From a virus (Duplodnaviria; Heunggongvirae; Uroviricota; Caudoviricetes): a DNA stretch of 64,000 nucleotides. Made by a program: the position numbers and the translations under genes. The notes under the pieces are model-generated. The model was not told the DNA's origin. It did no database searches and worked only from the letters and a program-made list of their open reading frames with translations. Shown here one piece after another: positions 31,014 to 56,215 of the stretch (position 1 is the stretch's first letter; each line of letters opens with the position of its first letter). Location: the IMG/VR virus record IMGVR_UViG_2740892427_000001; one strand, 5' to 3'.

Positions 31014-32069
31014 ATGAGCGAAAACGGCAATAAAAACATAGCGATCGTTGAAGCATTTTCAGAAACAGATAAAAAGACAGGCGAAGTTGTTACGTTGGTT
31101 CCTAACACTAATAACACTGTTCAGCCTGTTGCTTTGATGCGTCTGGGCCTCTTCGTTCCGACGCTGAAATCGACATCCAGAGGAAGAAAGGGGCAAATGG
31201 TCTCTATGGATGCCTCTGCTGAACTCAAACAGCTGTCTCTGGCAAAAGCCGAAGGGTACGAAGACATAAGGATCTCTGGCCTTCGGCTTGATATGGATAA
31301 CGACTTTAAAACGTGGGTGGGAATAATCCACGCGTTTGCCAAACACAAGGTCGTTGGCGATACTGTCACGTTGCCGTTCGTTGAGTTTGTAAGGCTGTGT
31401 GGCATTCCGACCGCCAGGTCATCAGCGAAGTTACGCAAACGCCTGGACAGTTCGCTAAGCCGTATTGCCACAAATACCATCTCGTTCCGTAGCAAAGGCT
31501 CTGATGAGTTTTACGTAACGCATCTTGTGCAAACGGCAAAATATAGTGTCAAGCACGATACGGTCGAACTGAAAGCAGATCCCAAGATTTTCGAACTCTA
31601 CCAGTTCGACAAAAAGGTTCTTCTGCAACTCCGGGCTATAAACGAACTCTCAAGAAAAGAATCCGCTCAGGCGCTTTATACTTTTATTGAAAGTTTGCCG
31701 CCTGATCCGGCACCAATATCACTAGCTCGTTTACGCGCCAGACTTAATCTGACAAGTCGCACTATTACTCAGAATGCGACGGTAAGAAAGGCTATGGAAC
31801 AGCTGCGAGAGATAGGATATCTCGATTACACGGAAGTTAAGCGCGGAAACTCGGTCTACTTCATCATCCACTATAGGCGGCCAAAGTTACGCCAGGCACA
31901 AATATCAACAAAAATCGATAATGATGAGACGGAATATAGCCTCCCAGATGAGAATCAAGATGACATTATCGACGTTGTGCCTGACGAAAAAGAAGGCAAA
32001 ATGGTCATGTTGAGTAAAGAAGAACTGGCGCTTCTCGAAGAGTTGCGCAAGGCAAAGACTCGCAAATAG
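31014..32069 (+). CDS. repA: P1/RepFIB-type replication initiator RepA
   Basis: Blocks [51 protein letters not shown] match P1 RepA from memory; flanked by iterons. Confidence 0.85.
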
Positions 32070-35295: not shown

Positions 35296-37635
35296 TTACT
35301 CTTCTACTGACTCGGTGGGGTTGTCTTTTGCTCTTCGGTCGTCGATTGCCTGCAAAGCCGCAATGATTTCAGCCAGTGGCTTCTCCCGATACATCTCGAC
35401 GATCTGCGATTTGGTGTATTTCTTGTCACCAATTTCAACTCGCCCGCTGGCGTTCTTTGGCAGGTATCCTTCTTCCAGCATGTACTCGACGAGCGATTCG
35501 ATAACGTCGAGGCCACGAGTAGGATCGAAGTAGAATTTCCAGGTGCATTTGCCATACGGTGGTGCAACTTTGTTTTTGATGCATTCTGCGCCTACGTCCT
35601 GGCCGATCTTCTCTTTACCATCCTTCATCACCGATGCACCAAGACGGATACGTACAGAAGCGTAGAACTTCGGTGAATCGCCGCCTGGTGACGTAGTAGG
35701 GTCGCCAAACATTACACCGATTTTTGTGCGAACCTGATTCAAGAAGATGATGCAGGCGTTGTATTTGCGTGCCCACAAAGCCAGAGTAGGGAAGTTCGCA
35801 CTCGTCGCACGAGCCAGTGCCGTATTGTCGTTCATGTTTAGCTGATCTTTGTCTTTGGCAGTGCCTTCAGCCATCTTTTCGAACTTCTCGGCTTTGGAGT
35901 TCGGAACCATAGACGCAAGAGAGTCAGCCACGATACAGATAGGTGCTGATTCGGGGATAAGCTCTTCATCACGAACCAATTTAAGTATTGTGCCGATCAA
36001 CTCTACAGAGTCTTCGAAGGTATCTGGCTGCTTGTATACCCACTGACCGTCATCCTCATCTGCGTTCAGGCCATTGGCTACAGCCAGGCCAACGTCAAAA
36101 CTGTTTTCATGATCGAGGAATACCGCCAGACCATCTTGTTTTTGAGCGGAGATCATCGCTGCTGTTGCAAGGAATGTGTTGTGGCTGATAATCCCGTTAG
36201 ACCAGAAAGAGTGTGTTTCCGGCATCGCTACGTCGAACGTTGGTGCTTCACCTTCCTCAATAGCCACGACTTCGTCGTAGAACAAGTTAGAGCCAATTAC
36301 CGCTGCCAGTTGTGCAAACAGATGCTCGTTAAAACGATTCTTTCTGCCAATGAAGGAGACATAGATTTCTCGCAGTTTGTCTATTCCGACACGATCGCCG
36401 CGGCCAATAACGTGGTCTACCAGAGCGTAGTCTTCACGGGTGGTCTTGGTGAGCGACTCGTAGAGTGATTTCACTAAGCCGCTGATGTGCGGAACATAGC
36501 CTGAGTAAGTGCGGTCAAAACCAATGTCCCGTTTGGTTGCCACTGATAAACGTGCCGGAGATTCGAAACCAATCGTTGACAGAAAAAGGTCGTAATTAGA
36601 GCCACTGAATGACAGCCGGTAATATGTATTTTCATAACCCGCGACGTGTTTTTCAGAGATAGTTGACGTAATCCCCAGATTCAGGAGCATGAGGCGAATT
36701 TGCTGTAGCAGCAGCCCACTCGCGCTCACAACCTCAATGCAGCGACCATCATTGACGTGGCATTCCAGCTCAAAGTAGCCGCGAAGGAATGCAATTTGAG
36801 CCTCGCTATTGGCGCGACGCACACTCAACGGAACCTGCTTGCCAGCATCTTTCTCATACTCCAGACCATATTCTTTAAAAAGCAGCGAACGCACCTCTTT
36901 GCTAAACAGCACATGGTCTTCCGAGCCGTTATGTTTTCTCGTAACTGGCATCTTGTCTGATACCAGCGAAATGAGGCGGTAGTACTCATCCTTGATGAAA
37001 GGATCTGTGTTAGAAAAATTCACTGAATTTTCAGAGGCCACGTATCCGTCAGCAATTAAATAGCCCATCAGTTTTGCGATATTGGCATCCAGGTGCTGAT
37101 CGCCGAATTGATGTGTGCCAACCATTGAAGGAATCGTGTCGCCTACACTGATTTTTTCAGCATGTCGCCAGACGACATTACCTAAGTCGTCAACCACACG
37201 GATTGGGTGACGGAACGTAGCCTCGATATAACCGCCTGATGCCAGCTTAATACGCTTGAATTTGCGACGGTTGTTCCATGTCAGGTGTGAGGTCTTCTCT
37301 ATCACGCCATTTTCATTGATGAGTCCAACGTTATGCTCTACATCGCGAGTAGTGCATGTCGCTTTGTACCCTTCAATCTCAAACAACTCTTTCACTGTTA
37401 CCATTCCACGCTCCGTCAGCAGCATGGTGTCTGCGGTAACACATTTCCCCGCGCTTGGTGGCCCGAATACTTCGACGATACGACCACATGGGAAGCCGCC
37501 ATCGTAACGACCAGAAATAGCTTTGTTTAACGGTGGAAAGCCTGTATCAATCCAATGAGTTACTTTCTGAATTTCGTCGTTGCTACCGATTTTCTTTTTC
37601 AGAGCAAGTGCCAGTGCGGATTTTCCTTTTGCCAT
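35296..37635 (-). CDS. recA: RecA recombinase containing an in-frame intein
   Basis: Exteins read ...RIVEVFGPPSAGK / TFLATAAM...LNQVRTKIGVMFGDPTTSPGGDSPKFYASVRIRLG (RecA core); 779 aa total versus ~357 aa extein. Confidence 0.85.
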   Translation of the reverse strand: MAKGKSALALALKKKIGSNDEIQKVTHWIDTGFPPLNKAISGRYDGGFPCGRIVEVFGPPSAGKCVTADTMLLTERGMVTVKELFEIEGYKATCTTRDVEHNVGLINENGVIEKTSHLTWNNRRKFKRIKLASGGYIEATFRHPIRVVDDLGNVVWRHAEKISVGDTIPSMVGTHQFGDQHLDANIAKLMGYLIADGYVASENSVNFSNTDPFIKDEYYRLISLVSDKMPVTRKHNGSEDHVLFSKEVRSLLFKEYGLEYEKDAGKQVPLSVRRANSEAQIAFLRGYFELECHVNDGRCIEVVSASGLLLQQIRLMLLNLGITSTISEKHVAGYENTYYRLSFSGSNYDLFLSTIGFESPARLSVATKRDIGFDRTYSGYVPHISGLVKSLYESLTKTTREDYALVDHVIGRGDRVGIDKLREIYVSFIGRKNRFNEHLFAQLAAVIGSNLFYDEVVAIEEGEAPTFDVAMPETHSFWSNGIISHNTFLATAAMISAQKQDGLAVFLDHENSFDVGLAVANGLNADEDDGQWVYKQPDTFEDSVELIGTILKLVRDEELIPESAPICIVADSLASMVPNSKAEKFEKMAEGTAKDKDQLNMNDNTALARATSANFPTLALWARKYNACIIFLNQVRTKIGVMFGDPTTSPGGDSPKFYASVRIRLGASVMKDGKEKIGQDVGAECIKNKVAPPYGKCTWKFYFDPTRGLDVIESLVEYMLEEGYLPKNASGRVEIGDKKYTKSQIVEMYREKPLAEIIAALQAIDDRRAKDNPTESVEE
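36178..37443 (-). mobile_element. intein (422 aa) with LAGLIDADG homing-endonuclease motifs, inserted in the RecA P-loop
   Basis: Begins with Cys directly after GK of Walker A, ends with HN followed by Thr; internal LMGYLIADGYV and LRGYFELECHV blocks. Confidence 0.8.
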
Positions 37636-37637: not shown

Positions 37638-37910
37638 TCAGGCTCCTTTTGTTTCGTTGATTCGTTTTAAAGCGGCGGATTCGTCGAATACAATCGCATC
37701 GTGGTTAAGGAGTCTGGATACACGAGCGAGGATTTTTACGACCTGCTCGCTGACTAATCCAAACTCGCGATCTGTCGCTTTCATTCCGGCAGCGCCCAGA
37801 ATTGACGGCAGTGCGATGACAGCGTACTCACCGTGATAAAAGACAATCTCTTTTGCCAGTTGGGTAGGGGTGGTTGTAGCGCCATTAATAATCGATTTAA
37901 GCATTAGCAA
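37638..37910 (-). CDS. small hypothetical protein
   Basis: 90 aa ORF. Confidence 0.4.
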   Translation of the reverse strand: MLMLKSIINGATTTPTQLAKEIVFYHGEYAVIALPSILGAAGMKATDREFGLVSEQVVKILARVSRLLNHDAIVFDESAALKRINETKGA

Positions 37911-38899
37911 TACCTTTCGAATGGAAGAACAAACACTTCAAGGTCTTCAAGGAACGAACGGAAATTCAGCTCGTAGCACAGTTGCTCGAATGCTTTCACG
38001 TCACGATTGCCTTTGATTGTTTCGATTTCGGTAGGCGGAAACTTCGTCTCAATCAGGTTCATTAGCGTGATGTTTCTCTTGAACGCTTCGAGCATTCGAC
38101 AGCCTGTTTTCTCGTTGAAGGCATTCTTCGCTAGTTTGTTGAAGGCGGTCTTATGGCGTCCTTTGTCAACCACGATTGAGCCGTCGTTGATGCCGCGTAC
38201 CATCGTTGCGACACTTCCCCATTCATGCAGCAGCTCTTTCGCACCGCCAGCACCAATGCCACCAACACCGCTAATGTTGTCCGATTTATCGCCTTGTAAT
38301 GCTTTTGCTTCCAAAAATGCGCGAGGCGTGGCGAATCCTGTCAGCTCCGCAAATTGCTCAAAATTAACCTGCTTGTTTTTGGCGTCTTCACGCAGGCTTA
38401 CCCAGCTTACGTTTTCACGAACTAACTGAAGCCAGTCGCTATCGCCTGTTAACAGATAGATGTGTTCAACGGTTGGCTGCGGTGCCATGCGGGATACCAG
38501 CAGCCCGGCCAGATCATCCGCTTCTGCATCTTTTGCAATGAGTTGGGTAACTCCAAGCGCGGTCATCATTTTGAGGATGTATGGCTTCTGGATAGCAAAG
38601 CCTTCCTTCATCTTTTTCATATCAGGATCGTCGTCGCGATTTGCTTTGTAGTCCGGGTAAAAGTCGCGACGCTTGTCACTAAATCCATCCCAAAGAATCA
38701 TAGGTCGGGCATGGAGGATGGAGGCATAACGACGGACGTTCTTAACAAAGCCGAAAGCAGCCTGTACTTCCATTTCGCCGTTGTGCAATTTGTCAGATTG
38801 TTGGTGGTAATAACCCAGGCTATTGCCATCTACGAAGAGATAATTCACCGGTACATTCCTTCCAAAAAGTAAGGCGTCCGTAGAGGCCTTACTGGTCAC
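37904..38899 (-). CDS. 5'-3' exonuclease / flap endonuclease
   Basis: FVDGNSLGY N-terminal block and H3TH-like GDKSDNISGVGGIG. Confidence 0.7.
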   Translation of the reverse strand: MTSKASTDALLFGRNVPVNYLFVDGNSLGYYHQQSDKLHNGEMEVQAAFGFVKNVRRYASILHARPMILWDGFSDKRRDFYPDYKANRDDDPDMKKMKEGFAIQKPYILKMMTALGVTQLIAKDAEADDLAGLLVSRMAPQPTVEHIYLLTGDSDWLQLVRENVSWVSLREDAKNKQVNFEQFAELTGFATPRAFLEAKALQGDKSDNISGVGGIGAGGAKELLHEWGSVATMVRGINDGSIVVDKGRHKTAFNKLAKNAFNEKTGCRMLEAFKRNITLMNLIETKFPPTEIETIKGNRDVKAFEQLCYELNFRSFLEDLEVFVLPFERYC

Positions 38900-38908: not shown

Positions 38909-39937
38909 TTACAGAGAGTCCAGCTCTCTCAGTAGGTCATCCAGACCTTCATCTTCCGTCGCAGATGCGGTTGCTACAGATGTCGCTGCGACTGCTTCAG
39001 ACTCTTTGACTGATACGGCAACGGCAGCGGAACTTGCCTCTGGTTTAAATTCAGTTTCAACGGCACGGAGGATTTCTTCATCAACCAGACTGGTTGGTTC
39101 AGAAGCCGGTGTGTGCGCGGTTGCTACAGCCGTCGCTCCTTCTGTATGACCAGTGACAGAGCCAAATCCAGGTAGTGCCGCAGCCGATGTTTTCGCGGTT
39201 GAGGAAATTGCTGGTGCAGATGCTGCGGCAGTTGGTGCAGCGATGCCAATCAGACGACCCATAGTGCGAACTGTCGACAGAAGACGAGTTTCATCAGCCT
39301 GATTTGCGTATGCGATCAGATCATGCTGGGTGTTCCAGAATTTATCTTCGATATCGCCTTTGTAGACTTTACGCTTAGGCGAGACGTCATATTTGGTATC
39401 GCGACCAGAGCCAGTACGTTTAATCAGGAATGCGTAGCCTTCCTCTTTGCTCAGTGGATTGCCGATATCATCAGCGATGTCTTCGGTGATTGCTTTGCAG
39501 ATATCATCGAATACAGTAGACGGCAGCTCGATTAACTGGCATTTCTCAGCATCTGCGAAATCCTCACGAGCAGAAAGAATGCCGTTGACCAGGTAGCGAG
39601 GAGTGGCACGCATTTGACCGATGCGTTCTTCCATTGCTTTGTTACCCTTGTGACGAGCGCGACCTTCCATCACCATTTCGCATAGCTGACAAGCGCGACC
39701 GTGAGTATGTTGCTCACAAATATAAGCGTTGGTTGCTTCTTTACCTTCCTCGTTCTGATACTTAACGTAGTGCATACCGAAAGTCTGGAAGAACTTACCG
39801 TTTGGGTCGTCTTTATTCGGGAAGATGCGGATATAGTTGACGCCGTCTTTTAAGCGAGTCAGATCAACGTTGTTGCCACGTTTGGCGGCAATGTCTTCAC
39901 GAGTTTTGTTAAGCAAATCAAGTAATGTCTTAGACAT
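38909..39937 (-). CDS. T4 gp32-like single-stranded DNA-binding protein
   Basis: Zn-binding pattern CEQHTHGRACQLCE; Ala/Ser-rich linker; acidic C-terminus DEGLDDLLRELDSL. Confidence 0.6.
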   Translation of the reverse strand: MSKTLLDLLNKTREDIAAKRGNNVDLTRLKDGVNYIRIFPNKDDPNGKFFQTFGMHYVKYQNEEGKEATNAYICEQHTHGRACQLCEMVMEGRARHKGNKAMEERIGQMRATPRYLVNGILSAREDFADAEKCQLIELPSTVFDDICKAITEDIADDIGNPLSKEEGYAFLIKRTGSGRDTKYDVSPKRKVYKGDIEDKFWNTQHDLIAYANQADETRLLSTVRTMGRLIGIAAPTAAASAPAISSTAKTSAAALPGFGSVTGHTEGATAVATAHTPASEPTSLVDEEILRAVETEFKPEASSAAVAVSVKESEAVAATSVATASATEDEGLDDLLRELDSL

Positions 39938-40054: not shown

Positions 40055-40486
40055 TCAACGGGGAGTAATAAAGCGTTCAGAGCCTAATCGCTCTAATTCA
40101 ACGATGGCCATCTTTGACGCCTGAACGATCATGTCTCGGCGATGCGAAAAGGCGGCGACAGCATGTTTGTATATGTCTGCGATGTGCCGTGCTTCATCCA
40201 ACTTCTGCCGTTTAGACAGATACTGTGGGTTTGTTTTAACCTTAGCGTCCAGTACAGACTCGTTGAACTTAATGCCGTTCATACTCAAGTTCTTACGCTC
40301 TGTGTCGTATAGCTTTGCTTCAACAGCTTCAAGGTTAAGTTTTGCCTCTGCGACATCTCGATCTGCCTGCGCTAGTTTTGACCCATACTCCATTAAAAGC
40401 CGTGGCTGTTTACGCCATACTTCCTCAAGGTTGTCGCGGTCGAACTCCAGATCGGCCATGATTTTAGAAAAAATATCAGTGTTCAC
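40055..40486 (-). CDS. hypothetical protein (possible recombination mediator, by position only)
   Basis: 143 aa helical protein next to SSB and RecA genes. Confidence 0.35.
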   Translation of the reverse strand: MNTDIFSKIMADLEFDRDNLEEVWRKQPRLLMEYGSKLAQADRDVAEAKLNLEAVEAKLYDTERKNLSMNGIKFNESVLDAKVKTNPQYLSKRQKLDEARHIADIYKHAVAAFSHRRDMIVQASKMAIVELERLGSERFITPR

Positions 40487-42437: not shown

Positions 42438-45400
42438 TTACTTATTTATTGTCTCCGCGATATCAGCCAGAATGGCCTCCAGTCGCTCTCCTTCTTCCGG
42501 TCGGAAGTACAGGATATTCGGGTTAAATCCGTAGAAGACGGTTGCATCAAGCTCTGGGAAGTACTCCTTACGACCAATCAGATCTGATGGTTTACTCTTA
42601 TTGTTAAATAGTGCGGTTGAACGACTACCACACGTCAAAATGTAGGTTGGTCGTACAAGATTAATTTCTTCCCGCATAAAGTCTGTGAACTGGCCTATCT
42701 CGTCTTTGGTATAGTCTTTCTCTTTGTCCTTAACCTTCTTACAAACACCCGTGACATAAAGATCGCCCATGCGCAGATCTCCAACTGTCAGTAGTTTTGC
42801 CTTAAAGTCGTCGTATCCGTTCTCCATGAAGTAGCCGGTACGAGCGTCATTGCCGTTCGCATTGTCCAGAATGATCATGATTTTGGGTTTAATACCAATA
42901 GTCGGGCGTATCAACTCCTCACCCAAGCCCATTTCAGCCGCCATACGTGTCATGAGTACGTTGATTTCGGCAGAACGCTTAGGATTCATTTCGAACGGAC
43001 GTGATGCTTTAACAGCGTCAATGATGAGATTGCCCATCAGCTCAGCCTGGTCGCGCAGTCGTTCAGGATCAGTTGCTGGCAGACTGCCTGGCTCAATTGA
43101 CGCAAAAGCCCCTACTTTATGAAGCGACTCGCGTACACGACTGTTACATGCACGCTTCTCGACCGCTTCATCGAATTGTGCCACTGACTCGAATTTGCCA
43201 CCAACTTTCTCACGCGCACGCATAATTGCCTGACAACCATTTTCAGAACAGCCTTTCACAGCAGAGAATGGCGCATACAGTGCCTGACTGCCGTCTTCGA
43301 GTGTGCGGATCTCAATTCGGTTAGATGACACATTAACGTCTGGTGGCAATACGCGAATGCCATAGGTCAGCGCATCCTTCACCAGCCCCTGATGCTTATC
43401 CTCGCCCAGAATGGTGAGCGCAGCTGCGAAGAACTCAGCAGGGTAGTGCGTCTTTAGCCACATAGACTGATAACTGATTAAAGAATAAGCAACACTGTGT
43501 GATTTGTTGAAGGCATATCCACCGAACTTCTCAAAGGCGTCCCATATTTCTTGGGCTTTTTCCTTACTGAGACCTTCTTGTTCAGAGACGATCTCCACGT
43601 AGTCTATGCCGTCACTAATAGCCTCGCTGTAGCTTCTACGCTTACCGTCTGAGCAATCCAGTTTTGCGTGTTTGTGAACCTCTACAGTACCTCCATTTTT
43701 GAGTGACAGTGTCACCCAGCCTGCTTGTGCTCGTTCTACAAAATCGCTGCCGATCGCTTTCATCTTATCCATGTTCTTTTTACCGATAGCGGAACGCAGA
43801 GCGTCTGCTTCGGCCATAGAGAACCCGGCAAGTACTCGGGAACTTTGCATGATTTGTTCCTGATAGAGCAAAACACCATTAGTCTCCCGGGTGACTTCCT
43901 CAAGACGCGGATGAATTGAATGTGGAGCCATGAAGCCTTTGGCCACGGAGACATAGTCGTCCAACATGCCGGATTGGATCGGGCCTGGTCGGAAGAGTGC
44001 GGTCGTGGCGACAACGGTCTTGAAGCTCATTGGCTCGATGCCACCGCCCAGATCTTTAAGCAACTTACGCATGGGGCCGGACTCCAGCTGGAATACGCCC
44101 TGCGTGTACCCTGCAGCGAACCCATCCAGAACCTTGCGATCGTCCAGTGGGATAGCGTCGAGATTGATGTCTTCCCCGGTACTCTCTTTGATGTAGCGTT
44201 TCGCGCTATCCAGAAGATCGAGCGTTGCCAGGCCAAGCACGTCCAGCTTAATTAGGCCCATAGCCTCGCAGTAACGCTTGTCAAATGCGATACAACGCGC
44301 GTCACCACGGCGCTCAACCGGTGTACGTTCTGTCAGAGGAACACCTGCTACGATCATCCCTGCCGCATGTCTACCAAAGCCACGCATAAGGCTTTGTAAC
44401 TTGCAGGCTGCATTGAATGCATCAGGATATTTTGTTGCGTATTTGTCGAGACTTGCCAGTTGTTCGCGCAGCTCTTCCAATGGAAGGCTATCATCCTCGA
44501 CGTTCTTCAGTTCTTTTGATACCGCCATATCTGCGGACTCCACACCATAAATACGAGCGGTGTCACGTAGTGCAGATGCCGCGCCCAGATAGGTGAAGTT
44601 CGGAATGCCTGCAACGTAATCTTCGCCGTAGCGTTCATTCAGATACTCGATCACCTCATGGCGACGTGCCTGGCTGAAGTCCAAGTCCGCATCCGGCAAG
44701 TCGAGACGCTCAGGGTTGATGAAACGCTCAAACAGAAGACCGTGACGGATTGGGTCGACGTTGGTTATGCCTATGCACCACGCCACCAGAGAACCGGCAG
44801 AGGAACCACGACCAGGCCCGACAGGAATGCCAGTTTCACGGCTGTGATTCATCAGATCGCGTACCATCAGGAAGTAACCACAGAATCCCAGGCGAGTCAG
44901 CGTGTCCATTTCGTACTTTAGCCGCTCAACATAAACCCTGTTCTCAGAAGCAGGTGGTGTGTATCCAAACTCTTTTGTGGTAAGACGTTTACGCAGCCCT
45001 GCAACAGCCAGTTTCATCAGCGTTGCAGGTTCGTCGTCTGCCATCTTGGGCAGTGCTGGTGGCAATTCATGCCAGCGCCATGTGCAGGCATCGATAATGG
45101 AGTCCTGCGTTGTTGAGGCCATTGCAGCTGTTACCGGCACATCCATGCGAACGGAGAAGGCTTTAAGCGCCTCAAGGAGATGGCGACGACCATTGATGGC
45201 GTTATCTCGCTGGTGGGGGATACGCAGACGATGCGGCTGGTCGATTTTTATGTTGTTCGTAACCATGTGCGCAATGTCTTTAATGTCTGCATCGTCGATC
45301 GATTCGTAATAAGCGGGATAGAACGCCACTGGCTCTATTTTCAATGCGCTGGCTACTTTCATCGCTCGGACGTTAATCTGGTCGTAGAATGGGGTAGGGT

Positions 45401-45944
45401 GCGGATAAACCACGCTATAGAAGTTGTCTTTCCCGCCCGCTGTAATCAGTGAGCTTATGATTTTTGCAAAATCGTTGCGTTGGAACACGCTACCGATGTC
45501 GGAAGTGAGCAGGATGATGTTGCCTTTGGCATATGTAGAAACCAACTGTTCGAGCGAGAGACGCGGTACAAAGTAGAACTGTTCTCGTGTGTTGGCCACC
45601 GTCATTAGTTCGCAGATGTCGCGATATCCTTTCTCATTTTTAATTAGAGCGGTAAACGAGTAGTTACGTCCTCGCTCCAATGATTCCATACATCCCTTAG
45701 ACTCTTTAGCAAGTTTAGCCCGGTGCTCGTATGTGGGATCATCAACGATGTTTAGTTTCACACCACAAATAACCGCCATGTCGTCACCAGCGGCACGTTG
45801 TAGTGGAATAACGCTCGCAATATTCATGCTATCTGCTGAAATTACAGCGGTGTAGCCAGCTTCTCTGGCAATCTTCACCGCGTTTTCTGCTTTTAGAGCC
45901 GACTCCCCAAGTGAGAAGTCAGTTCGAACCATCAGTGCTTTCAT
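42438..45944 (-). CDS. dnaE: DNA polymerase III alpha subunit-like replicative polymerase
   Basis: 1168 aa; N-terminal PHP-like domain; PDADLDF catalytic aspartate block parallels DnaE PDIDIDF. Confidence 0.8.
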   Translation of the reverse strand: MKALMVRTDFSLGESALKAENAVKIAREAGYTAVISADSMNIASVIPLQRAAGDDMAVICGVKLNIVDDPTYEHRAKLAKESKGCMESLERGRNYSFTALIKNEKGYRDICELMTVANTREQFYFVPRLSLEQLVSTYAKGNIILLTSDIGSVFQRNDFAKIISSLITAGGKDNFYSVVYPHPTPFYDQINVRAMKVASALKIEPVAFYPAYYESIDDADIKDIAHMVTNNIKIDQPHRLRIPHQRDNAINGRRHLLEALKAFSVRMDVPVTAAMASTTQDSIIDACTWRWHELPPALPKMADDEPATLMKLAVAGLRKRLTTKEFGYTPPASENRVYVERLKYEMDTLTRLGFCGYFLMVRDLMNHSRETGIPVGPGRGSSAGSLVAWCIGITNVDPIRHGLLFERFINPERLDLPDADLDFSQARRHEVIEYLNERYGEDYVAGIPNFTYLGAASALRDTARIYGVESADMAVSKELKNVEDDSLPLEELREQLASLDKYATKYPDAFNAACKLQSLMRGFGRHAAGMIVAGVPLTERTPVERRGDARCIAFDKRYCEAMGLIKLDVLGLATLDLLDSAKRYIKESTGEDINLDAIPLDDRKVLDGFAAGYTQGVFQLESGPMRKLLKDLGGGIEPMSFKTVVATTALFRPGPIQSGMLDDYVSVAKGFMAPHSIHPRLEEVTRETNGVLLYQEQIMQSSRVLAGFSMAEADALRSAIGKKNMDKMKAIGSDFVERAQAGWVTLSLKNGGTVEVHKHAKLDCSDGKRRSYSEAISDGIDYVEIVSEQEGLSKEKAQEIWDAFEKFGGYAFNKSHSVAYSLISYQSMWLKTHYPAEFFAAALTILGEDKHQGLVKDALTYGIRVLPPDVNVSSNRIEIRTLEDGSQALYAPFSAVKGCSENGCQAIMRAREKVGGKFESVAQFDEAVEKRACNSRVRESLHKVGAFASIEPGSLPATDPERLRDQAELMGNLIIDAVKASRPFEMNPKRSAEINVLMTRMAAEMGLGEELIRPTIGIKPKIMIILDNANGNDARTGYFMENGYDDFKAKLLTVGDLRMGDLYVTGVCKKVKDKEKDYTKDEIGQFTDFMREEINLVRPTYILTCGSRSTALFNNKSKPSDLIGRKEYFPELDATVFYGFNPNILYFRPEEGERLEAILADIAETINK

Positions 45945-46128
45945 GTGTTTTTACCTTTATGGTTTTTTTGATTTTGTCATTGGGGAAGCCTACGAACTTC
46001 CCATACATCGAAATCGCAACTTCTTTTGCTGATTGGTGACAATCGGTCTTGTCTGGACATACCAGACAAGCCTTACCAGTTTCAGAAGCAGCGATAAGAG
46101 AGCCGAAACATCCTTTACGCACGATCAA
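45919..46128 (-). CDS. small Cys-rich protein
   Basis: 69 aa, CLVCPDKTDCH. Confidence 0.35.
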   Translation of the reverse strand: MIVRKGCFGSLIAASETGKACLVCPDKTDCHQSAKEVAISMYGKFVGFPNDKIKKTIKVKTHESTDGSN

Positions 46129-47360
46129 CCAAATATTTTTTGAACAACTTCACGAGCCGCTTGTGCAGAAGCTGAAGGGAGTTTGTTAATGAAAGAACGC
46201 TCAATACCTGTCACAAAGTCGCCTCGCATCATTCCAATCTTGGCCGACAACAAAAGTTCACGAGGGCCAATTGGCTGACTGATAAGGTGTTCTTCGTATC
46301 CATCGCGAACGATACCGGCAAACTTAACCATCTTTTCTGCGTATTCATCCACGATACCGGCATTTATCAACATGTTGATCTCTGCCTCTTTGCTCATGTA
46401 TTTCACATTCGAAACGATGCCAAAACGCGAAAAGTTCGCGGCGTTCTGGATGTTTGTACCCTGGTACAAGCCGGTTTCATCACCAGATCCGTTCGTGTTG
46501 CCAGTGCCAATGAAAGCAAACCGTTCATGCGGAGTAATGCGACGCCATTCTGGAGTCGCCTCTTTGATGACCAACGCTTCACCTTCCAGCACTGGCTGAT
46601 ACACGCCAAGAATCTGTGGAAACGCAAAGTCGTATTCATCCGCGAGGTAAACCCAGCCATGCTTCATTGCGAGCGCAAGCAAGCCAGGCTCGAAATACGT
46701 AGAGCCATCACGCGCCAGAATTTGCCCCGTAACATGTGCCTCTTCCATTGATGCTGTATGTTGGGCACGGATCAACGGACGATTGAGCAAAGCACATAGT
46801 TGTGTAGGCAATGACGATTTGCCTGTTCCTGCATGACCCCACAAATAGCCAGGTATGCCAAGTTCAAGCATCATGAAAATGTCTTTGATCAGTTCGAAGT
46901 CGCCATATACGTAGCCCTTCTTCACTTCTGGAACGAACTCTGGAAACGGCGTATTGACGTTGACGCTAACCATGAGCGGCGTCCCACGTTTTGTTCCGAG
47001 TTCTTTCACCGTTACATTTAGCAGTTCGTGAGCTGCGACCAGATCTGTCTTGTACTCAACTGTGCCTGTGTAGCCTGGGCTACTGGTCACGCCAGATGAT
47101 TTGGCCATTTCGCTTTTTTGCTCGGCACGTTTAGCTTGAATTGCATCAAGTGCCTTTTTCGATAGCGTTGGCTCATCTGGAAACTGTGTTGTGTACATTT
47201 TCAGTACGGTGTCAGGATCGGCATCTTTTACTGACTCAGGAATGCCCTCGCAATTACCATTGGCTACATGGGACTTAAAATAGTGAAATGATTTTCCGCA
47301 CCACTTGCAAACAAGGTAATCAGAAGGATTTTTTTCATTTTGCAGTGCAGTAGTAGTCAT
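46125..47360 (-). CDS. CobS-like AAA+ (MoxR-family) ATPase
   Basis: Walker A GHAGTGKS; pairs with downstream vWA protein. Confidence 0.6.
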   Translation of the reverse strand: MTTTALQNEKNPSDYLVCKWCGKSFHYFKSHVANGNCEGIPESVKDADPDTVLKMYTTQFPDEPTLSKKALDAIQAKRAEQKSEMAKSSGVTSSPGYTGTVEYKTDLVAAHELLNVTVKELGTKRGTPLMVSVNVNTPFPEFVPEVKKGYVYGDFELIKDIFMMLELGIPGYLWGHAGTGKSSLPTQLCALLNRPLIRAQHTASMEEAHVTGQILARDGSTYFEPGLLALAMKHGWVYLADEYDFAFPQILGVYQPVLEGEALVIKEATPEWRRITPHERFAFIGTGNTNGSGDETGLYQGTNIQNAANFSRFGIVSNVKYMSKEAEINMLINAGIVDEYAEKMVKFAGIVRDGYEEHLISQPIGPRELLLSAKIGMMRGDFVTGIERSFINKLPSASAQAAREVVQKIFG

Positions 47361-47455: not shown

Positions 47456-49564
47456 TCACTTTAAAATGATACGAGATAGTTCAGTAACTACAGATGAACC
47501 AAGACTATCAACGCTCGTTACCAGGGCATGATTTGAGTAAAATCTCTCCGGTGCGTCAGTCATGATGCCAATTGCCATCAAATCAATGTCAGTCTGCGTT
47601 TCAATTTGCTTCGCAACCGAACGCAAATGAGCGTCAAAACCTCTCCCAACAGCCCACGGCTCGCCATCGCTCAGAACAAGCATGATCTTCCTGTCCTCCA
47701 TGCGACCGGAAAATAACGATGCAAGGCTGGCTATGCTTTCACCATCCACGTTATTAAGAAGTGGGAATGTGTAGCCTACGCACCCCATACGTGAGCGAAC
47801 TTCGCGAGAATTTACCTTTTCATTCCAATTTTTGATGATAGGTAGCATTAAAGATTCAAAGCGAGAGAACTCATACTTGACAGCCTTAAGTTCTCCTGCC
47901 GCCATATGACTACCAAATGTAGTGAAGCCGGTGATAATGTTGGGAACATTTATTCGATCAAGGGCATCGGCGATGGTATATGCACTTGCAAGAGCCAATT
48001 GTATCGTTATACCCCTCATTGAACCTGATAAATCAATCACTTGTTGAACACAGGCGTTAACGGCTTTAGATTCTTCTTTTTTACGAAACACGCGATCATC
48101 ATTCATTGCTAATCTGTAGATACTAGAACCATGAATGCGCCCCCGACGCTGGCCCGGTATAAACTGAACTCTGTTTCTGCTTGCTATTGCTCGCTCCAGG
48201 TCTTTTGCCAGCGTCGACGAAACACCTGACGAAAGATGCTTTTCAATATATTTGTCGAAGAGCTGGTTGCCTTCAGGAACGATGCGATAGCGGCTGATTG
48301 GACATCCTCCTAAATCAATATCGGAGAATGTTTTAATAAGCCGTTTGATATGGGCTTCTGCCTGATCAATCGAGCCGATGAAGTCGTATGAGCGATTGTA
48401 TGGCCTGTATTCGCTTTTCGAGCTTTCTGTTAACTCGCTTTTAATCGTTTCGGATAGAGCATCTTCTGTCATGCCTCCGACTTCATCTTCTATGCTATCC
48501 AGCTCCTCTAAAGCCTCTTCCAGACTCATTTTTGACGGAGTTGGGATATCTGAAGAGCCGTCTTCTGTCGTTTTTCTTTTTTCGTGGTCAGCGGTTAATG
48601 ATTCTGACGCCGCGTTATCAGAAGCATCAGAATCTGATACCTCTTTATCATTTTCTGTATCATCGAATATTGTTTCTGATGATTCAGAATTATCTGAATC
48701 ATCACTGTTGTTATTATCATGTTTGTGCTTACTATGTGATTCTGATTTGATAGATTTGTGATTATCTAACAATGAAGGTGTCTCATGATCTTCGTTGTCT
48801 TCATTGTTTTCTCCAGAGGCATCCGTCTGGTCAGCGTCAGAAGGATCGGAAGTTTTTCCCGGAGCTGACTCCTTACCTTTGCTTTCACTTTCAGTGTCTT
48901 TGAGGATCTTAGCTATGGTCGCAGCCACCTTTACACAATCCTCGGTGCAAGACATGTTACGCACGGCCACATCGATACCATGTTCTTTTAATAATGAAAT
49001 TGGTTTCTCAATGACAGGCCAGTATTCATCCATGAAATCTACGAACGGTGCTTGGCCATCCCAGGCTCTTACAACCGGACAGAGAAAGAAGTTTAGAAAA
49101 AGCGCGCGCTGATCTTTGCCACAATAAGCAATAGCCTCTGAAGCCTTTGGTTTAAAGACTTTTTCGATTATAAGGCGCTGAGTTGCCATCAGATTACGTC
49201 TTGTTCCGTTAAAGACCTGACCCATTTTTCGCTCGATGAACACGTCTTCTAAGGCATTCCATAGCGACCAGGAAGGAACGCGTCCTTTTTCTCTCATTTT
49301 GTTGGACACACGAATATCGGTAAACAAAATGTGAGCAACCTCATGATCGAGAAATCCGCGCACAGCATTCATCAATGCCGGTGTTGCGTTATCCGGGATT
49401 GATGGGATGTTTACGAGAATTGGCTCTCCATCATCGTTATAGCGTACATAAGCGTCGTCCCCTCGTTCTGCAACAGGGATGTTTTTACCTGAAAGGAGAG
49501 CGACTACTCGTTTTACACTGTCACGGAAGTCCTGAACCTCTTTGATGGAACGTTTTTTAGACAT
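47456..49564 (-). CDS. CobT-like protein with C-terminal von Willebrand A domain and long acidic low-complexity linker
   Basis: vWA-like blocks DLSGSM ... MLVLSDGEP; ~150-aa D/S/E/N-rich region. Confidence 0.55.
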   Translation of the reverse strand: MSKKRSIKEVQDFRDSVKRVVALLSGKNIPVAERGDDAYVRYNDDGEPILVNIPSIPDNATPALMNAVRGFLDHEVAHILFTDIRVSNKMREKGRVPSWSLWNALEDVFIERKMGQVFNGTRRNLMATQRLIIEKVFKPKASEAIAYCGKDQRALFLNFFLCPVVRAWDGQAPFVDFMDEYWPVIEKPISLLKEHGIDVAVRNMSCTEDCVKVAATIAKILKDTESESKGKESAPGKTSDPSDADQTDASGENNEDNEDHETPSLLDNHKSIKSESHSKHKHDNNNSDDSDNSESSETIFDDTENDKEVSDSDASDNAASESLTADHEKRKTTEDGSSDIPTPSKMSLEEALEELDSIEDEVGGMTEDALSETIKSELTESSKSEYRPYNRSYDFIGSIDQAEAHIKRLIKTFSDIDLGGCPISRYRIVPEGNQLFDKYIEKHLSSGVSSTLAKDLERAIASRNRVQFIPGQRRGRIHGSSIYRLAMNDDRVFRKKEESKAVNACVQQVIDLSGSMRGITIQLALASAYTIADALDRINVPNIITGFTTFGSHMAAGELKAVKYEFSRFESLMLPIIKNWNEKVNSREVRSRMGCVGYTFPLLNNVDGESIASLASLFSGRMEDRKIMLVLSDGEPWAVGRGFDAHLRSVAKQIETQTDIDLMAIGIMTDAPERFYSNHALVTSVDSLGSSVVTELSRIILK

Positions 49565-54733: not shown

Positions 54734-54896
54734 CCTTAATCTCCTTCAGGGTGTTGGTTATTTCTACAATGCGATAAATACGACCGCGTCTTTCTATAAC
54801 ACCGCTTTTAATGTAGTCATTGATGCAACTGGACATCACCACAATACCTATGAAAAAACCAACTGCTAAAAATGCAATCATCCAGCCGAGCATCAT
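54717..54896 (-). CDS. small membrane peptide (59 aa)
   Basis: MMLGWMIAFLAVGFFIGIVVM...; starts right after ligase stop. Confidence 0.3.
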   Translation of the reverse strand: MMLGWMIAFLAVGFFIGIVVMSSCINDYIKSGVIERRGRIYRIVEITNTLKEIKDDRIK

Positions 54897-56215
54897 TCTT
54901 TATCTCCGATTCGATCTTCTGTATCGCGTAAGCAACGCGGCCATTTCAGTCGGGGGTGGCGTAAGCTGCCATCCGGTGTTTTCTCGTGACAATGAACCTC
55001 AACAATACGACCACGGTACTTCTCTTTGTTGTTCCAGATCTCGTCCAGATATTTATGCTTAATACCGCTCGCACGAACGATGACGCCGTTTTCAAGACGA
55101 ATAACAATTTTTCCAAGCGTGTTGGCAAAACCAGAGTCCGGATCGCCCGGCTCAAAATCGATAATTTCACCATCTTCTGAATCTTCGTCTTTTAACTTCC
55201 ACCAGCTGCGGGTACGTTTAAACTCGTAAACAGAGTTCGGATCTTTGCCCATCTCCCCTTCTTCGTTATCGTCCAGGCGTTTCATGAAGCGTTCGATGAA
55301 GTCTTCGTGGCTATGGATGATATAGAACGGATGTAGGTGAATGTCTTGCGCGTAGTCTTCACTGCGATCGTTTTTGAACAACGCCACGAGAATAGCCAGG
55401 CGCTCTTTCAGCTTCATACCTGTCTTTGCATACTCTTTGGATTTAGCCTGTGCCCGCCATTCCGGTAGGAAAAAGTCGAAAACATGATAAATAGCGCCAA
55501 TTGCCTGCACGTTCTTTTTGCGCAATGCAGATACGGACTGGTTAAATGAACCGGCTGTTCCTTCACCATCGAAGAAGATGTGTTTGTGGCCTGAAAGTTT
55601 GCCTAATTCGAGCATTGCTGGCTTTAGGTGATCGAGAGACGTGATTGGATTACCAGTACGAGAAAGGAAGTTAACCTCTTCCTCGTCAACAATAACCTCG
55701 CAAATTACTCGCAAACCATCGAGCTTAAGACTGCCAATCATCGGCCATTTTGCTTTAGGATTTGGCTTGAAGGGGTATTTGTCGCCTTTTTCTTTATACG
55801 GTGACGCCAGCTGCACCTCGAATTTCGGAATGGGATTTTCAAAAACCTTGTTGCATAGGCTAATCCCAACACCTGCTTTCGGGTCTTTTAAGAGGAAACG
55901 ACGGAACACGTCCTGCCCATCGGCGCACATTGACGCCACGATAGACTCAACAGCTGCTATTGCTGCGTTCCCCGTCAGCTCGCGAGAGGCCAGCTTATTC
56001 AGTACATCAATGGCTTTTTCGTCACTTGGGACGGACTCACTAAGCGGCTCTGCCACTTTGTATTTCTTTACCCCAAAACGGATGAAAGGGTTGAGCATCA
56101 ATGAAACCATGCTTTGTTCAAAGTCATCCATGTTGGCCAATGCCTCTTTTTTTGCATTGGTTCCCATAGCTTTCATTTCGTCCAGCTTATGCTTAAGTGC
56201 GATCAACTTTTTCAT
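54893..56215 (-). CDS. ATP-dependent DNA ligase
   Basis: Adenylation motif I KLDGLR; 440 aa. Confidence 0.7.
   Translation of the reverse strand: MKKLIALKHKLDEMKAMGTNAKKEALANMDDFEQSMVSLMLNPFIRFGVKKYKVAEPLSESVPSDEKAIDVLNKLASRELTGNAAIAAVESIVASMCADGQDVFRRFLLKDPKAGVGISLCNKVFENPIPKFEVQLASPYKEKGDKYPFKPNPKAKWPMIGSLKLDGLRVICEVIVDEEEVNFLSRTGNPITSLDHLKPAMLELGKLSGHKHIFFDGEGTAGSFNQSVSALRKKNVQAIGAIYHVFDFFLPEWRAQAKSKEYAKTGMKLKERLAILVALFKNDRSEDYAQDIHLHPFYIIHSHEDFIERFMKRLDDNEEGEMGKDPNSVYEFKRTRSWWKLKDEDSEDGEIIDFEPGDPDSGFANTLGKIVIRLENGVIVRASGIKHKYLDEIWNNKEKYRGRIVEVHCHEKTPDGSLRHPRLKWPRCLRDTEDRIGDKE

What the first reader, a model, noticed from the sequence alone, without database searches (positions are those of the whole stretch)
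42438..45944. Composite replisome: bacterial-type DnaE polymerase and DnaQ exonuclease combined with T4-like SSB, RecA and SbcCD
The element encodes a Pol III alpha-like polymerase (1168 aa) and a separate DEDD exonuclease, but no clamp or clamp-loader gene is visible in the window. It also encodes DnaB-like helicase, primase, ligase, a gp32-like SSB, flap endonuclease and RNase H. Use of a DnaE-type polymerase presumably with host beta clamp is an unusual arrangement.
Basis: partly seen in the sequence, partly recalled or inferred. Interest (0 to 1): 0.4.

Follow-up and report, generated by a model that had tools for sequence, protein, structure and literature searches.

The report
Phage-plasmid DnaE polymerase with UDG-like tail
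The gene is the intact but atypical bacterial-type DNA polymerase of a common, already described E. coli phage-plasmid (SSU5/pHCM2/pMT1 family); it lacks every known handle for the host sliding clamp, and its biochemistry has not been studied.

Summary
The window is part of an SSU5/pHCM2/pMT1-type phage-plasmid of E. coli. It is 99.9% identical to plasmid NZ_CP085184.1 and 99.3% to phage Cyrano.

The polymerase is an intact C-family enzyme: the catalytic aspartates D418/D420/D568 are present and dN/dS is 0.05-0.2. It is not an E. coli-type DnaE:
- The PHP metal site is lost.
- The ~46-aa segment that carries the internal beta-clamp motif in bacterial DnaE1 is deleted.
- The OB and tau-binding domains are replaced by a family-4 uracil-DNA-glycosylase (UDG) fold. 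In that fold the catalytic His and the uracil-contacting Asn are changed and the Fe-S cysteines are lost.

This architecture was published in 2014 for the pMT1/pHCM2 polymerases. No clamp or clamp loader was detectable among 40 proteins scanned from the window and the Cyrano genome. The "host beta clamp" idea therefore has no sequence support.

The best reading is the lytic-cycle replicase of a conserved phage module (MoxR/vWA-DnaE-UvsY-like-gp32-FEN-RecA-SbcCD), with RepA and iterons serving plasmid maintenance. The gene is common (244 of 5426 complete E. coli genomes) and known, but biochemically untested.

The parts
42438..45944 (-). DnaE-type (C-family) DNA polymerase, 1168 aa. Architecture: variant PHP, palm/thumb/fingers, (HhH)2, UDG-like domain.
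   Evidence: ORF; Pfam domains; phrog_405 'DNA polymerase' E=0; PDB Pol III alpha chains E=1e-127 to 1e-116; annotated dnaE in Cyrano and RefSeq plasmids.
45420..45929 (-). PHP domain (aa 6-175 by Pfam) with its metal site lost. The nine metal-ligand positions read M5, R7, E14, S39, K63, K77/S, -/D, P210, Y212.
   Evidence: Alignments to E. coli DnaE and 40 full-length family members (positions 6 and 7 differ between the two). Ligand positions from Barros et al. 2013, PMC3666897.
44241..44693 (-). Polymerase active site: codons for D418 (44691-44693), D420 (44685-44687) and D568 (44241-44243).
   Evidence: Aligned to E. coli D401/D403/D555 and Taq D463/D465/D618; codons checked.
43581..43724 (-). 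48-aa insertion (aa 741-788) in the loop after the fingers. In relatives this is the point where an HNH homing-endonuclease gene splits DnaE into two ORFs.
   Evidence: Absent from Taq, Mtb and E. coli. Among 41 full-length family members it occurs only in the window and P0008. Split genes with HNH at this point.
43092..43361 (-). (HhH)2 domain (aa 862-951).
   Evidence: PF14579 E=3e-16; profile A1 vs Pol III alpha structures E=5e-50.
43026..43061 (-). Family-conserved segment RLRDQAELMGNL (aa 962-973). It was considered as a clamp-binding motif and rejected. It is homologous to the bacterial 'E(K/R)E.LG.Y' segment that leads into the OB domain.
   Evidence: Conservation; predicted helix with pLDDT above 90; alignment with 19 bacterial DnaE1.
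42441..42983 (-). Family-4 UDG-like domain (aa ~988-1168) replacing the OB and tau-binding domains. Motif A reads LDNAN (family 4: GEAPG), motif B reads NPN (HPS), the uracil-contacting Asn is Gly, and there are no Fe-S cysteines.
   Evidence: Profile vs PDB: 4zbx E=3e-21, 1vk2 4e-18, 1ui0 4e-16. AF2 model pLDDT 94. Foldseek: 4zbx E=2e-11, TM 0.80. Motif analysis. Literature: PMC3919608.
45919..46128 (-). 69-aa ORF between the MoxR gene and DnaE. Its TTG start overlaps the MoxR stop (TTGA) and its end overlaps the DnaE start by 26 nt.
   Evidence: phrog_6337 E=2e-44. No CDS is annotated there in Cyrano.
46125..47360 (-). MoxR-type AAA+ ATPase (annotated 'CobS'), directly upstream of DnaE.
   Evidence: PF07728 AAA_5 E=2e-15; phrog_249; same position in 4 distant loci.
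47456..49564 (-). vWA protein (annotated 'CobT') with an N-terminal HExxH motif; partner of the MoxR ATPase.
   Evidence: CobT_C/VWA E=4e-82; HEVAH conserved in distant homologues; synteny.
40055..40486 (-). UvsY-like recombination mediator (weak match).
   Evidence: phrog_2058; phrog_231 'UvsY-like' E=2e-4; Cyrano annotation.
38909..39937 (-). T4 gp32-type single-strand DNA-binding protein.
   Evidence: PF08804 E=2e-66.
37904..38899 (-). 5'-3' exonuclease / flap endonuclease.
   Evidence: PF02739 and PF01367.
35296..37635 (-). RecA (bacterial family) interrupted by a LAGLIDADG intein, 779 aa.
   Evidence: PF00154, PF14890 and PF14528.
31014..32069 (+). RepA, a Rep_3-family plasmid initiator.
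   Evidence: PF01051 and PF21205; phrog_775; Cyrano annotation.
30372..30926 (.). Putative plasmid origin: 21-bp iterons (30472-30574 and 30854-30926) and GATC-containing 12-bp repeats (30372-30424) upstream of repA.
   Evidence: Tandem Repeats Finder.
27264..28445 (-). SbcD-like nuclease subunit.
   Evidence: PF00149; phrog_100.
25118..27034 (-). SbcC-like ATPase subunit.
   Evidence: AAA_23, SMC_N and SbcC_Walker_B.
23807..24376 (-). RuvC-like Holliday junction resolvase.
   Evidence: phrog_159 E=3e-57.
15371..15925 (-). DnaQ-like DEDDh 3'-5' exonuclease, 184 aa. The exonuclease motifs are intact, but it lacks the C-terminal ~60 aa of E. coli epsilon (clamp motif and alpha-binding peptide).
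   Evidence: PF00929 E=4e-22; phrog_192 'DNA polymerase exonuclease subunit'; alignment to epsilon.
12034..12678 (-). RNase H.
   Evidence: PF00075 E=1e-45.
54893..56215 (-). ATP-dependent DNA ligase.
   Evidence: PF01068; phrog_114.
57608..58861 (-). DnaG/Toprim-type primase (longest ORF; Cyrano annotates a shorter start).
   Evidence: Toprim_2 and DNAG_N, both weak; phrog_47 E=4e-65.
58871..60211 (-). DnaB-like replicative helicase.
   Evidence: PF03796; phrog_19 E=6e-88.

Best explanation
The window is a 64-kb piece of an SSU5/pHCM2/pMT1-type phage-plasmid of E. coli, close to Cyrano/pLF82. The 1168-aa ORF is that family's own replicative C-family DNA polymerase.

Shown:
- The polymerase centre is intact.
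- The PHP metal site is lost.
- The bacterial internal clamp-binding segment is deleted.
- The OB and tau-binding domains are replaced by a family-4 UDG fold with altered catalytic residues.
- The gene is under purifying selection.
- It lies in a gene block (MoxR/vWA, small ORF, DnaE, UvsY-like, gp32, FEN, RecA, ..., SbcCD) that is conserved in very distant phages.

Inferred:
- The enzyme cannot dock into the host Pol III holoenzyme through tau or the canonical beta motifs.
- It acts as the lytic-cycle replicase together with the phage helicase, primase, gp32, ligase, FEN and RNase H, in a T4-style recombination-dependent mode (gp32/UvsY-like/RecA/SbcCD, plus UvsW elsewhere in the genome).
- Proofreading is supplied in trans by the DnaQ-like exonuclease.
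- The (HhH)2 and UDG-like domains hold the DNA, taking over the template-side position of the OB domain.
- Low-copy plasmid maintenance runs separately from RepA and iterons, using the host replisome.
For: Identity: 99.3% to Cyrano over the gene and 95-99% over most of the window; 99.9% to plasmid NZ_CP085184.1.

Polymerase centre: catalytic Asp and core motifs are conserved. dN/dS is 0.05-0.2 for the whole gene and 0.01-0.02 for the UDG-like domain.

PHP: 0-1 of 9 metal ligands remain, in the window protein and in 40 family members (positions from PMC3666897). That paper also reports that loss of PHP ligands co-occurs with a separate epsilon-type proofreader.

Proofreader: the DnaQ-like protein has an intact DEDDh set.

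UDG fold: profile E=3e-21, and TM 0.80 to 4zbx on a pLDDT-94 model.

Clamp-motif segment: deleted in all phage members aligned.

Clamp genes: no clamp or loader family found, and no canonical clamp motif in any replication protein.

Synteny: the gene block is conserved in four distant loci whose C-halves are about 35-40% identical to the window's, including Chitinibacter tainanensis.

Plasmid origin: RepA with 21-bp iterons. Cyrano is a roughly 5.5-copy phage-plasmid that produces virions (PMC9928086).
Against: No experiment exists on this polymerase, so processivity, partners and the role of the UDG-like domain are all inferred.
- A non-canonical contact with host beta, or with host epsilon/tau, cannot be excluded from sequence.
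- Several ORFs of 160-270 aa remain without any family assignment (e.g. 60255-61004, 56750-57532, 14403-15212). One of them could be a very divergent processivity factor.
- The DnaQ-like gene lies 27 kb from DnaE and lacks the epsilon peptide that binds alpha, so their partnership is unproven.
- The division of labour between RepA/host replisome and the phage replisome is by analogy with other iteron plasmids and with T4.
Confidence: 0.6

Rival explanations
1. One reading: the phage DnaE borrows the host beta clamp, loaded by the host clamp loader, through a non-canonical or cryptic motif such as Q966-A-E-L-M.
For: No phage clamp gene was found. The (HhH)2 'beta-binding' domain is retained. 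A Q-x-E-L-[LM] motif is conserved in 93% of family members just after that domain and superficially resembles E. coli QADMF.
Against: With 19 bacterial DnaE1 sequences in the alignment, that motif pairs with the bacterial E(K/R)E.LG.Y segment. The true clamp-motif segment is a ~46-aa gap in every phage protein. The motif is predicted to be a well-packed helix (pLDDT above 90), whereas clamp motifs bind as extended peptides (general knowledge). The tau/beta-binding C-terminal domain is absent. Phages of about 100 kb commonly lack clamps (PMC4889955).
Confidence: 0.2
2. The UDG-like domain is an active glycosylase that removes uracil from the template ahead of the polymerase, as in SP15-like phage PolA-UDG fusions.
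For: It has a genuine family-4 UDG fold. An acidic residue is conserved at the motif-A position (D1027, 80/81) and N-P at motif B resembles MUG/TDG-type enzymes. Purifying selection on the domain is very strong. There is precedent in A-family phage polymerases (bioRxiv 10.1101/2025.03.26.645540). The element carries ligase, FEN and nucleotide-pool enzymes.
Against: The motif-B His, the uracil-contacting Asn and, in the SSU5 group, all Fe-S cysteines are replaced. The Asn position is not conserved anywhere in the family. No AP endonuclease or Pol X was seen among the annotated genes.
Confidence: 0.2
3. The polymerase is an accessory repair or translesion enzyme (DnaE2-like), and the element is replicated by the host Pol III in both plasmid and lytic modes.
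For: Like DnaE2, it lacks the tau-binding domain (PMC3919608). The element has a RepA/iteron origin of the kind that normally recruits the host replisome. RecA, SbcCD and a LexA-like gene are present.
Against: There are no ImuA/ImuB partners. The gene is embedded with a replicative helicase, primase, SSB, ligase, FEN and RNase H, and this block is conserved in distant phages. It is a persistent, strongly constrained gene. Timinskas et al. left it unassigned to DnaE1-3, not in DnaE2.
Confidence: 0.08
4. The polymerase is a degenerate, inactive DnaE relic.
For: The PHP metal site is lost and the C-terminal domains are replaced.
Against: All three catalytic Asp and the GRGS, FERF, FQLES, YQEQ and NKSHS core motifs are intact. 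The reading frame is open for 1168 codons. dN/dS is 0.05-0.2. The protein type is conserved in 140 clusters at 50% identity.
Confidence: 0.02

Closest known systems
PHP-Pol3-(HhH)2-UDG DnaE variant of Yersinia pestis pMT1 and Salmonella pHCM2 ('DnaEX' in Timinskas et al. 2014, PMC3919608)
   Same: Same protein family and same domain architecture. pMT1 dnaE is 85% identical at the DNA level, and SSU5 is 85.5% identical.
   Different: Nothing essential. This copy is the unsplit form with the 48-aa junction insertion, whereas Klebsiella relatives have an HNH gene at that point.
E. coli Pol III alpha (DnaE1)
   Same: PHP, palm, thumb, fingers and (HhH)2 are present. The catalytic Asp triad is the same. 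The PHP domain is a variant without a full metal site, and a separate DEDDh exonuclease is encoded.
   Different: The internal beta motif segment, the OB domain and the tau-binding domain are absent, and a UDG-like domain takes their place. The exonuclease lacks the alpha-binding tail of epsilon. No clamp, clamp loader or tau is encoded.
SP15-like/SPO1-like phage A-family polymerases fused to a UDG domain (Missoury et al. 2025 preprint)
   Same: A replicative phage polymerase covalently joined to a UDG-superfamily domain. The phage also encodes a ligase.
   Different: The polymerase family differs (C vs A). The UDG is C-terminal and its canonical catalytic residues are altered. Activity is untested here, whereas the SP15-like domain is shown to be active.
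Poxvirus polymerase holoenzyme (B-family polymerase + A20/A22 + UDG D4/E4)
   Same: A UDG-fold protein is part of the replicase in a virus without a ring clamp (PMC4889955; preprint discussion).
   Different: It is a non-covalent three-protein complex, in a eukaryotic virus, with a family-1 UDG that is catalytically active. No A20-like bridge is identified here.
T4 recombination-dependent replication set (gp32, UvsX, UvsY, UvsW, gp46/47, rnh, ligase)
   Same: gp32 homologue, UvsY-like protein, RecA-family recombinase, UvsW (in Cyrano outside the window), SbcCD (the gp46/47 analogue), FEN and ATP ligase.
   Different: The polymerase is C-family rather than B-family gp43. There is no gp45 clamp or gp44/62 loader. 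The recombinase is bacterial-type RecA with an intein.

Membership tests
C-family DNA polymerase (Pol III alpha/DnaE) | N-terminal PHP domain | tested here: met
   PF02811 E=7e-13, aa 6-175. It is a variant form without metal ligands.
C-family DNA polymerase (Pol III alpha/DnaE) | Pol-beta-like palm with three catalytic aspartates | tested here: met
   PF07733 E=1e-73. D418/D420/D568 align to E. coli D401/D403/D555.
C-family DNA polymerase (Pol III alpha/DnaE) | Fingers domain and (HhH)2 domain | tested here: met
   PF17657 E=3e-46 and PF14579 E=3e-16.
DnaE1 (E. coli-type replicative alpha subunit) | Internal beta-clamp-binding motif after (HhH)2 (E. coli QADMF 920-924) | tested here: not met
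   The ~46-aa segment is a gap in all phage members aligned with 19 bacterial DnaE1. There is no canonical motif elsewhere.
DnaE1 (E. coli-type replicative alpha subunit) | OB-fold domain and tau-binding C-terminal domain | tested here: not met
   No Pfam OB or CTD hit. Residues 988-1168 are a UDG fold. Stated in PMC3919608.
DnaE-UDG variant (pMT1/pHCM2 type, Timinskas 2014) | PHP-Pol3-(HhH)2 core followed by a family-4 UDG-like domain in place of OB and CTD | tested here: met
   85% nucleotide identity to pMT1 dnaE.
Family-4 uracil-DNA glycosylase | UDG alpha/beta fold | tested here: met
   Foldseek: 4zbx E=2e-11, TM 0.80; also 1ui0 and 1vk2. Profile E=3e-21.
Family-4 uracil-DNA glycosylase | Motif A GE(A/G)PG, uracil-contacting Asn in 'TN..KC', and motif B HPS | tested here: not met
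   The window has LDNAN, TG and NPN. The family consensus is xDxPx, T-x and NP.
Family-4 uracil-DNA glycosylase | Four Cys ligands of the [4Fe-4S] cluster | tested here: not met
   The CxxC segment is deleted and the third Cys position is F1086 in the window protein; Cys is present at these positions in about 57% of the wider family.
Family-4 uracil-DNA glycosylase | Uracil excision activity | not testable with these tools
   Needs an enzyme assay.
Pol III epsilon (DnaQ) proofreading subunit | DEDDh exonuclease motifs I-III | tested here: met
   DIESTG, HNGEAFD and HSALYD align to the epsilon motifs. PF00929 E=4e-22.
Pol III epsilon (DnaQ) proofreading subunit | C-terminal segment with clamp motif (QTSMAF) and alpha-PHP-binding peptide | tested here: not met
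   The protein ends at aa 184; the epsilon residues from about 186 to 243 have no counterpart.
Sliding clamp / clamp loader (beta, gp45, PCNA; DnaX/HolAB, gp44/62, RFC) | A gene with a detectable clamp or clamp-loader domain in the element | tested here: not met
   None in 40 proteins scanned with Pfam or in 20 scanned with PHROGs. The only AAA+ protein next to DnaE is MoxR-type AAA_5. Very divergent clamps cannot be excluded.
SSU5-supergroup phage-plasmid | Nucleotide similarity and synteny with SSU5/Cyrano, plasmid Rep/Par genes and a phage replication-recombination array | tested here: met
   The virion genes lie outside the window but are present in Cyrano. Group definition in PMC7969092.

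The most novel reading that the evidence does not exclude
This may be a clamp-independent C-family replicase. In it, a remodelled family-4 UDG domain has taken the place of the OB and tau-binding domains on the template side. It would work as a template-strand reader or DNA-holding (processivity) module, possibly assisted by the MoxR/vWA pair that is always encoded just upstream. That would be a third, independent coupling of a UDG fold to a replicative polymerase, after A-family SP15-like phage polymerases and the B-family poxvirus holoenzyme. It would also be the first C-family polymerase shown to replicate a ~100-kb genome without beta and tau.
Probability: 0.3. Interest if true: 0.6.

Novelty: already known. 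Interest (0 to 1): 0.27.

Why it matters
As a discovery it adds little. The element type, the gene and its odd domain architecture are all in the literature and in RefSeq annotation.

It matters as an unexploited experimental system. SSU5-type phage-plasmids are common in clinical Enterobacteriaceae, including Y. pestis pMT1 and S. Typhi pHCM2. Their polymerase is a natural C-family enzyme stripped of every known connection to the bacterial holoenzyme: no tau domain, no internal clamp motif, no OB domain and no epsilon-binding tail on its exonuclease.

Working out how it achieves processive and accurate synthesis would show which parts of the Pol III design are dispensable. It would also test whether UDG-polymerase coupling is a general solution across polymerase families.

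Tried and rejected
- Single-sequence AlphaFold of the C-terminal 219 aa gave pLDDT 34 and was unusable. It was replaced by an 81-sequence alignment model.
- A word-indexed homologue search with the C-terminal domain alone gave only 6 close hits. The exhaustive representative search and a profile search were needed.
- Q966-A-E-L-M was considered as a clamp-binding motif. It looked promising on conservation. It was rejected after the helix prediction and the alignment with 19 bacterial DnaE1 sequences.
- A pairwise MAFFT alignment with E. coli alone placed this region differently, so pairwise placement there is unreliable.
- 'QRALF' in the vWA protein (aa 152) was considered as a clamp motif, but it is not conserved in distant homologues. 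Other regex hits are in unrelated small ORFs.
With A3 it returned only chromosomal dnaE genes matching the (HhH)2 part. That was useless for the host range of the UDG type but useful as a bacterial comparison set.
- The viral-contig scan kept only close SSU5-like relatives, so distant synteny came from the look-up of encoding contigs.
- Two papers could not be read: the SSU5 genome note PMC3457314 and a 2026 preprint on phage-plasmid heteroresistance.

Full report
**Observation.** The ORF listing returns an ATG-initiated ORF at 42438..45944 on the minus strand, 1168 aa, exactly as reported. Pfam finds four Pol III alpha domains:
- PHP, aa 6-175
- palm, aa 309-571, E=1e-73
- fingers, aa 574-740
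- HHH_6, aa 862-951

PHROGs assigns the protein to phrog_405 'DNA polymerase' over its full length. The best solved relatives are Pol III alpha of Thermus, Mycobacterium and E. coli, with E=1e-127 to 1e-116.

There is also a weak UvsY-like protein and a RuvC-like resolvase.

**What the window is.** The polymerase gene is 99.3% identical to Escherichia phage Cyrano (OV696614) and 85.5% identical to Salmonella phage SSU5. Most of the 64 kb aligns to Cyrano at 95-99%, in reverse orientation, with a few mosaic gaps.

Cyrano is pLF82, the SSU5-like phage-plasmid of E. coli LF82. It is kept at about 5.5 copies per cell and produces siphovirus particles (PMC9928086).

The gene occurs in 244 of 5426 complete E. 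coli genomes, always on plasmids, with the best match at 99.9% to NZ_CP085184.1. It also occurs on 781 PLSDB plasmids of Klebsiella, Escherichia, Enterobacter, Yersinia (pMT1), Salmonella and others, where it is routinely annotated dnaE. The SSU5 supergroup is the largest described set of related phage-plasmids (PMC7969092).

**Is the polymerase functional?**
- D418, D420 and D568 align with E. coli D401, D403 and D555 and with Taq D463, D465 and D618.
- The GPGRGS, LLFERF.NPER, FQLES, LYQEQ.MQ and FNKSHS core motifs are conserved.
- Against IMG/VR relatives, dN/dS is 0.05-0.2 for the whole gene and 0.01-0.02 for the last 169 codons, although dS is saturated there.

**How it differs from a bacterial DnaE.**

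(i) The PHP metal site is lost. The nine metal-ligand positions are E. coli R10, H12, D19, F44, D69, H83, G134, D201 and R203, with consensus H H D H E H C D H (PMC3666897). In the window protein they read M, R, E, S, K, K/S, -/D, P, Y, and they are equally lost in 40 full-length family members. That paper reports that loss of PHP ligands goes with a separate epsilon-type proofreader, and the element encodes one. It is a 184-aa DEDDh exonuclease with intact motifs, but it lacks the C-terminal ~60 residues of epsilon that carry the clamp motif and the alpha-binding peptide.

(ii) A 48-aa insertion (aa 741-788) follows the fingers. It is absent from bacterial DnaE. Among 41 full-length family proteins it occurs only in the SSU5-like pair.

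(iii) After (HhH)2 there is no OB fold and no tau-binding domain. Residues ~988-1168 have no Pfam hit, and a single-sequence PDB search gives only weak family-4 UDG hits (E=0.011). Stronger evidence came from three searches:
- An exhaustive search of 1.84 billion representatives found 140 clusters with this C-terminus. About 45 are full-length polymerases of 1077-1172 aa, about 45 are ~390-aa C-terminal halves, and a few are bona fide stand-alone family-4 UDGs.
- A profile of 33 C-halves hits Sulfolobus, Thermotoga and Thermus family-4 UDG structures at E=3e-21 to 4e-16.
- An AlphaFold model built on 81 homologues has pLDDT 94 and pTM 0.83. It superposes on 4zbx with TM 0.80, E=2e-11.

Most distant relatives carry precomputed PF03167 (UDG) plus PF14579.

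This architecture is already published. Timinskas et al. [quoted passage not shown]

**State of the UDG-like domain.** It was aligned with two genuine family-4 UDGs recovered in the same search:
- Motif A, GEAPG, becomes x-D-x-P-x in the family. D1027 is kept in 80 of 81 sequences; the window reads LDNAN.
- The uracil-contacting Asn of 'TN..KC' is not conserved; the window has Gly.
- Motif B, HPS, becomes N-P; the window reads NPN.
- The CxxC and third Cys of the Fe-S cluster are present in about 57% of the family but absent from the SSU5 group.

The domain is strongly constrained but is not a canonical uracil glycosylase. A DNA-binding or DNA-reading role, or an altered specificity, are both possible.

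**The clamp question.**

A conserved R..DQ.EL[LM]PG segment (aa 962-973 in the window, RLRDQAELMGNL) sits just after (HhH)2 and resembles E. coli QADMF. I tested it as a candidate clamp-binding motif and reject it for two reasons:
- It is predicted to be a confidently packed helix.
- When 19 bacterial DnaE1 sequences are aligned with 19 phage proteins, it pairs with the bacterial 'E(K/R)E.LG.Y.SGHP' segment that leads into the OB domain. The bacterial helix plus GQ..LFG clamp motif fall into a ~46-residue gap in every phage protein.

No canonical clamp motif is present in the polymerase, exonuclease, ligase, FEN, helicase or primase. A QRALF in the vWA protein is not conserved.

No clamp or clamp-loader family is detected in 40 proteins from the window and from the rest of the Cyrano genome (PHROGs). 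The remaining 28 kb of Cyrano is structural and lysis genes.

So the observation 'no clamp gene' holds as far as profile methods reach. The inference 'host beta clamp' has no positive sequence support. Several unassigned 160-270-aa ORFs leave room for an unrecognised factor.

**Context and conservation.** Four distant loci were examined, whose C-halves are about 35-40% identical to the window's. One is a 103-kb contig of the betaproteobacterium Chitinibacter tainanensis. All four show the same gene order:

vWA ('CobT') - MoxR AAA+ ('CobS') - small ORF(s) - DnaE - ~180-aa ORF - gp32 - FEN - RecA - ... - SbcD - SbcC

- In these loci DnaE is split at the position of the window's 48-aa insertion by an HNH/NUMOD4 homing-endonuclease gene, and one copy also carries an intein. 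Klebsiella SSU5-likes have the same HNH insertion.
- In the window, the MoxR stop overlaps the TTG start of a 69-aa ORF (phrog_6337), which in turn overlaps the DnaE start by 26 nt. This suggests co-expression.
- The 'CobT' protein has a conserved HExxH motif plus a VWA domain. That is the MoxR-vWA chaperone type that Iyer et al. describe in jumbo phages (PMC7824862).

The 'composite' set is thus an old, conserved phage module and not a recent patchwork. Mixing of bacterial-type and archaeo-eukaryotic/T4-type replication proteins is the rule in phages, while C-family polymerases are rare among them (PMC4889955).

**Most likely mechanism (inferred).** The element has two replication modes.
- As a plasmid, it uses RepA (Rep_3 family) with 21-bp iterons at 30472-30574 and 30854-30926 and GATC-rich repeats at 30372-30424. 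By analogy with other iteron plasmids, this recruits the host replisome.
- After induction, its own helicase, primase, gp32, DnaE-UDG polymerase, DnaQ-like exonuclease, FEN/RNase H and ligase replicate the genome. RecA, the UvsY-like protein, SbcCD, RuvC and UvsW support T4-style recombination-dependent initiation.

Because the tau domain and clamp motifs are missing, the polymerase is unlikely to plug into the host holoenzyme. The (HhH)2 and UDG-like domains, which occupy the place of the OB domain next to the template strand, are the best candidates for holding the DNA. The precedents are A-family SP15-like polymerases with an active UDG domain that reads the template ahead of the fork, and the poxvirus polymerase-UDG holoenzyme (preprint 10.1101/2025.03.26.645540). 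None of this has been tested for any member of the family that I could find.

**Verdict.** The thing itself is already known: the sequence is near-identical to deposited records, and the architecture was described in 2014. The residual interest lies in the unexplored biochemistry of a C-family polymerase that has shed all canonical holoenzyme contacts.

Noticed in passing
window 35296-37635 (-): RecA is 779 aa because a LAGLIDADG-type intein (Intein_splicing aa 73-486, LAGLIDADG_3 aa 279-356) interrupts it. Distant relatives have 330-350-aa RecA without an intein.
   Followed up: partly
window 43581-43724 (-); L085, L088, L090; Klebsiella plasmid NZ_CP107315.1: The 48-aa insertion in DnaE marks a recurrent insertion point for homing endonucleases. 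In distant phages and in Klebsiella SSU5-likes an HNH/NUMOD4 gene splits DnaE into ORFs of ~780 aa and ~390 aa. One relative also has an intein in the N-terminal part.
   Followed up: partly
window 45919-46128 (-): A 69-aa Cys-containing ORF (phrog_6337, E=2e-44) is not annotated in Cyrano. It overlaps the MoxR stop (TTGA) and the DnaE start (26 nt), which suggests translational coupling of MoxR, the small ORF and DnaE.
   Followed up: partly
window 46125-47360 and 47456-49564 (-): The genes annotated 'cobalamin synthetase / CobT' are a MoxR-type AAA+ ATPase and a vWA protein with a conserved HExxH motif. They sit immediately upstream of DnaE in all four distant loci examined, so a link to the polymerase is more likely than one to cobalamin.
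   Followed up: partly
window 30372-30926: An iteron-type origin lies upstream of repA: 21-bp repeats (consensus CCACTATAGAGAGCGAAAAAA) in two clusters, plus 12-bp AGATCCAAA repeats containing GATC.
   Followed up: partly
window 40741-42134 (+): A HicA/HicB toxin-antitoxin pair (Cyrano annotation) and an ORF at 41823-42134 that looks like a CspA-type cold-shock protein (by eye from its translation, [17 protein letters not shown]; no family search run; not annotated in Cyrano) lie on the opposite strand. They sit between DnaE and the UvsY-like gene and interrupt the otherwise conserved module.
   Followed up: no
window 52500-53350; window 1-240: By homology to the Cyrano annotation, which lists a tRNA cluster (Asn, Thr, Ser) and a methionyl-tRNA synthetase gene; the latter would run off the window start. 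Neither was re-checked in the window itself.
   Followed up: no
window 60255-61004, 56750-57532, 14403-15212 (-): Three conserved phage ORFs of 249-269 aa lie next to the helicase, primase/ligase and DnaQ-like genes. They have no Pfam hit and only 'unknown function' PHROGs. They are the best places to look for an unrecognised replisome accessory factor.
   Followed up: partly
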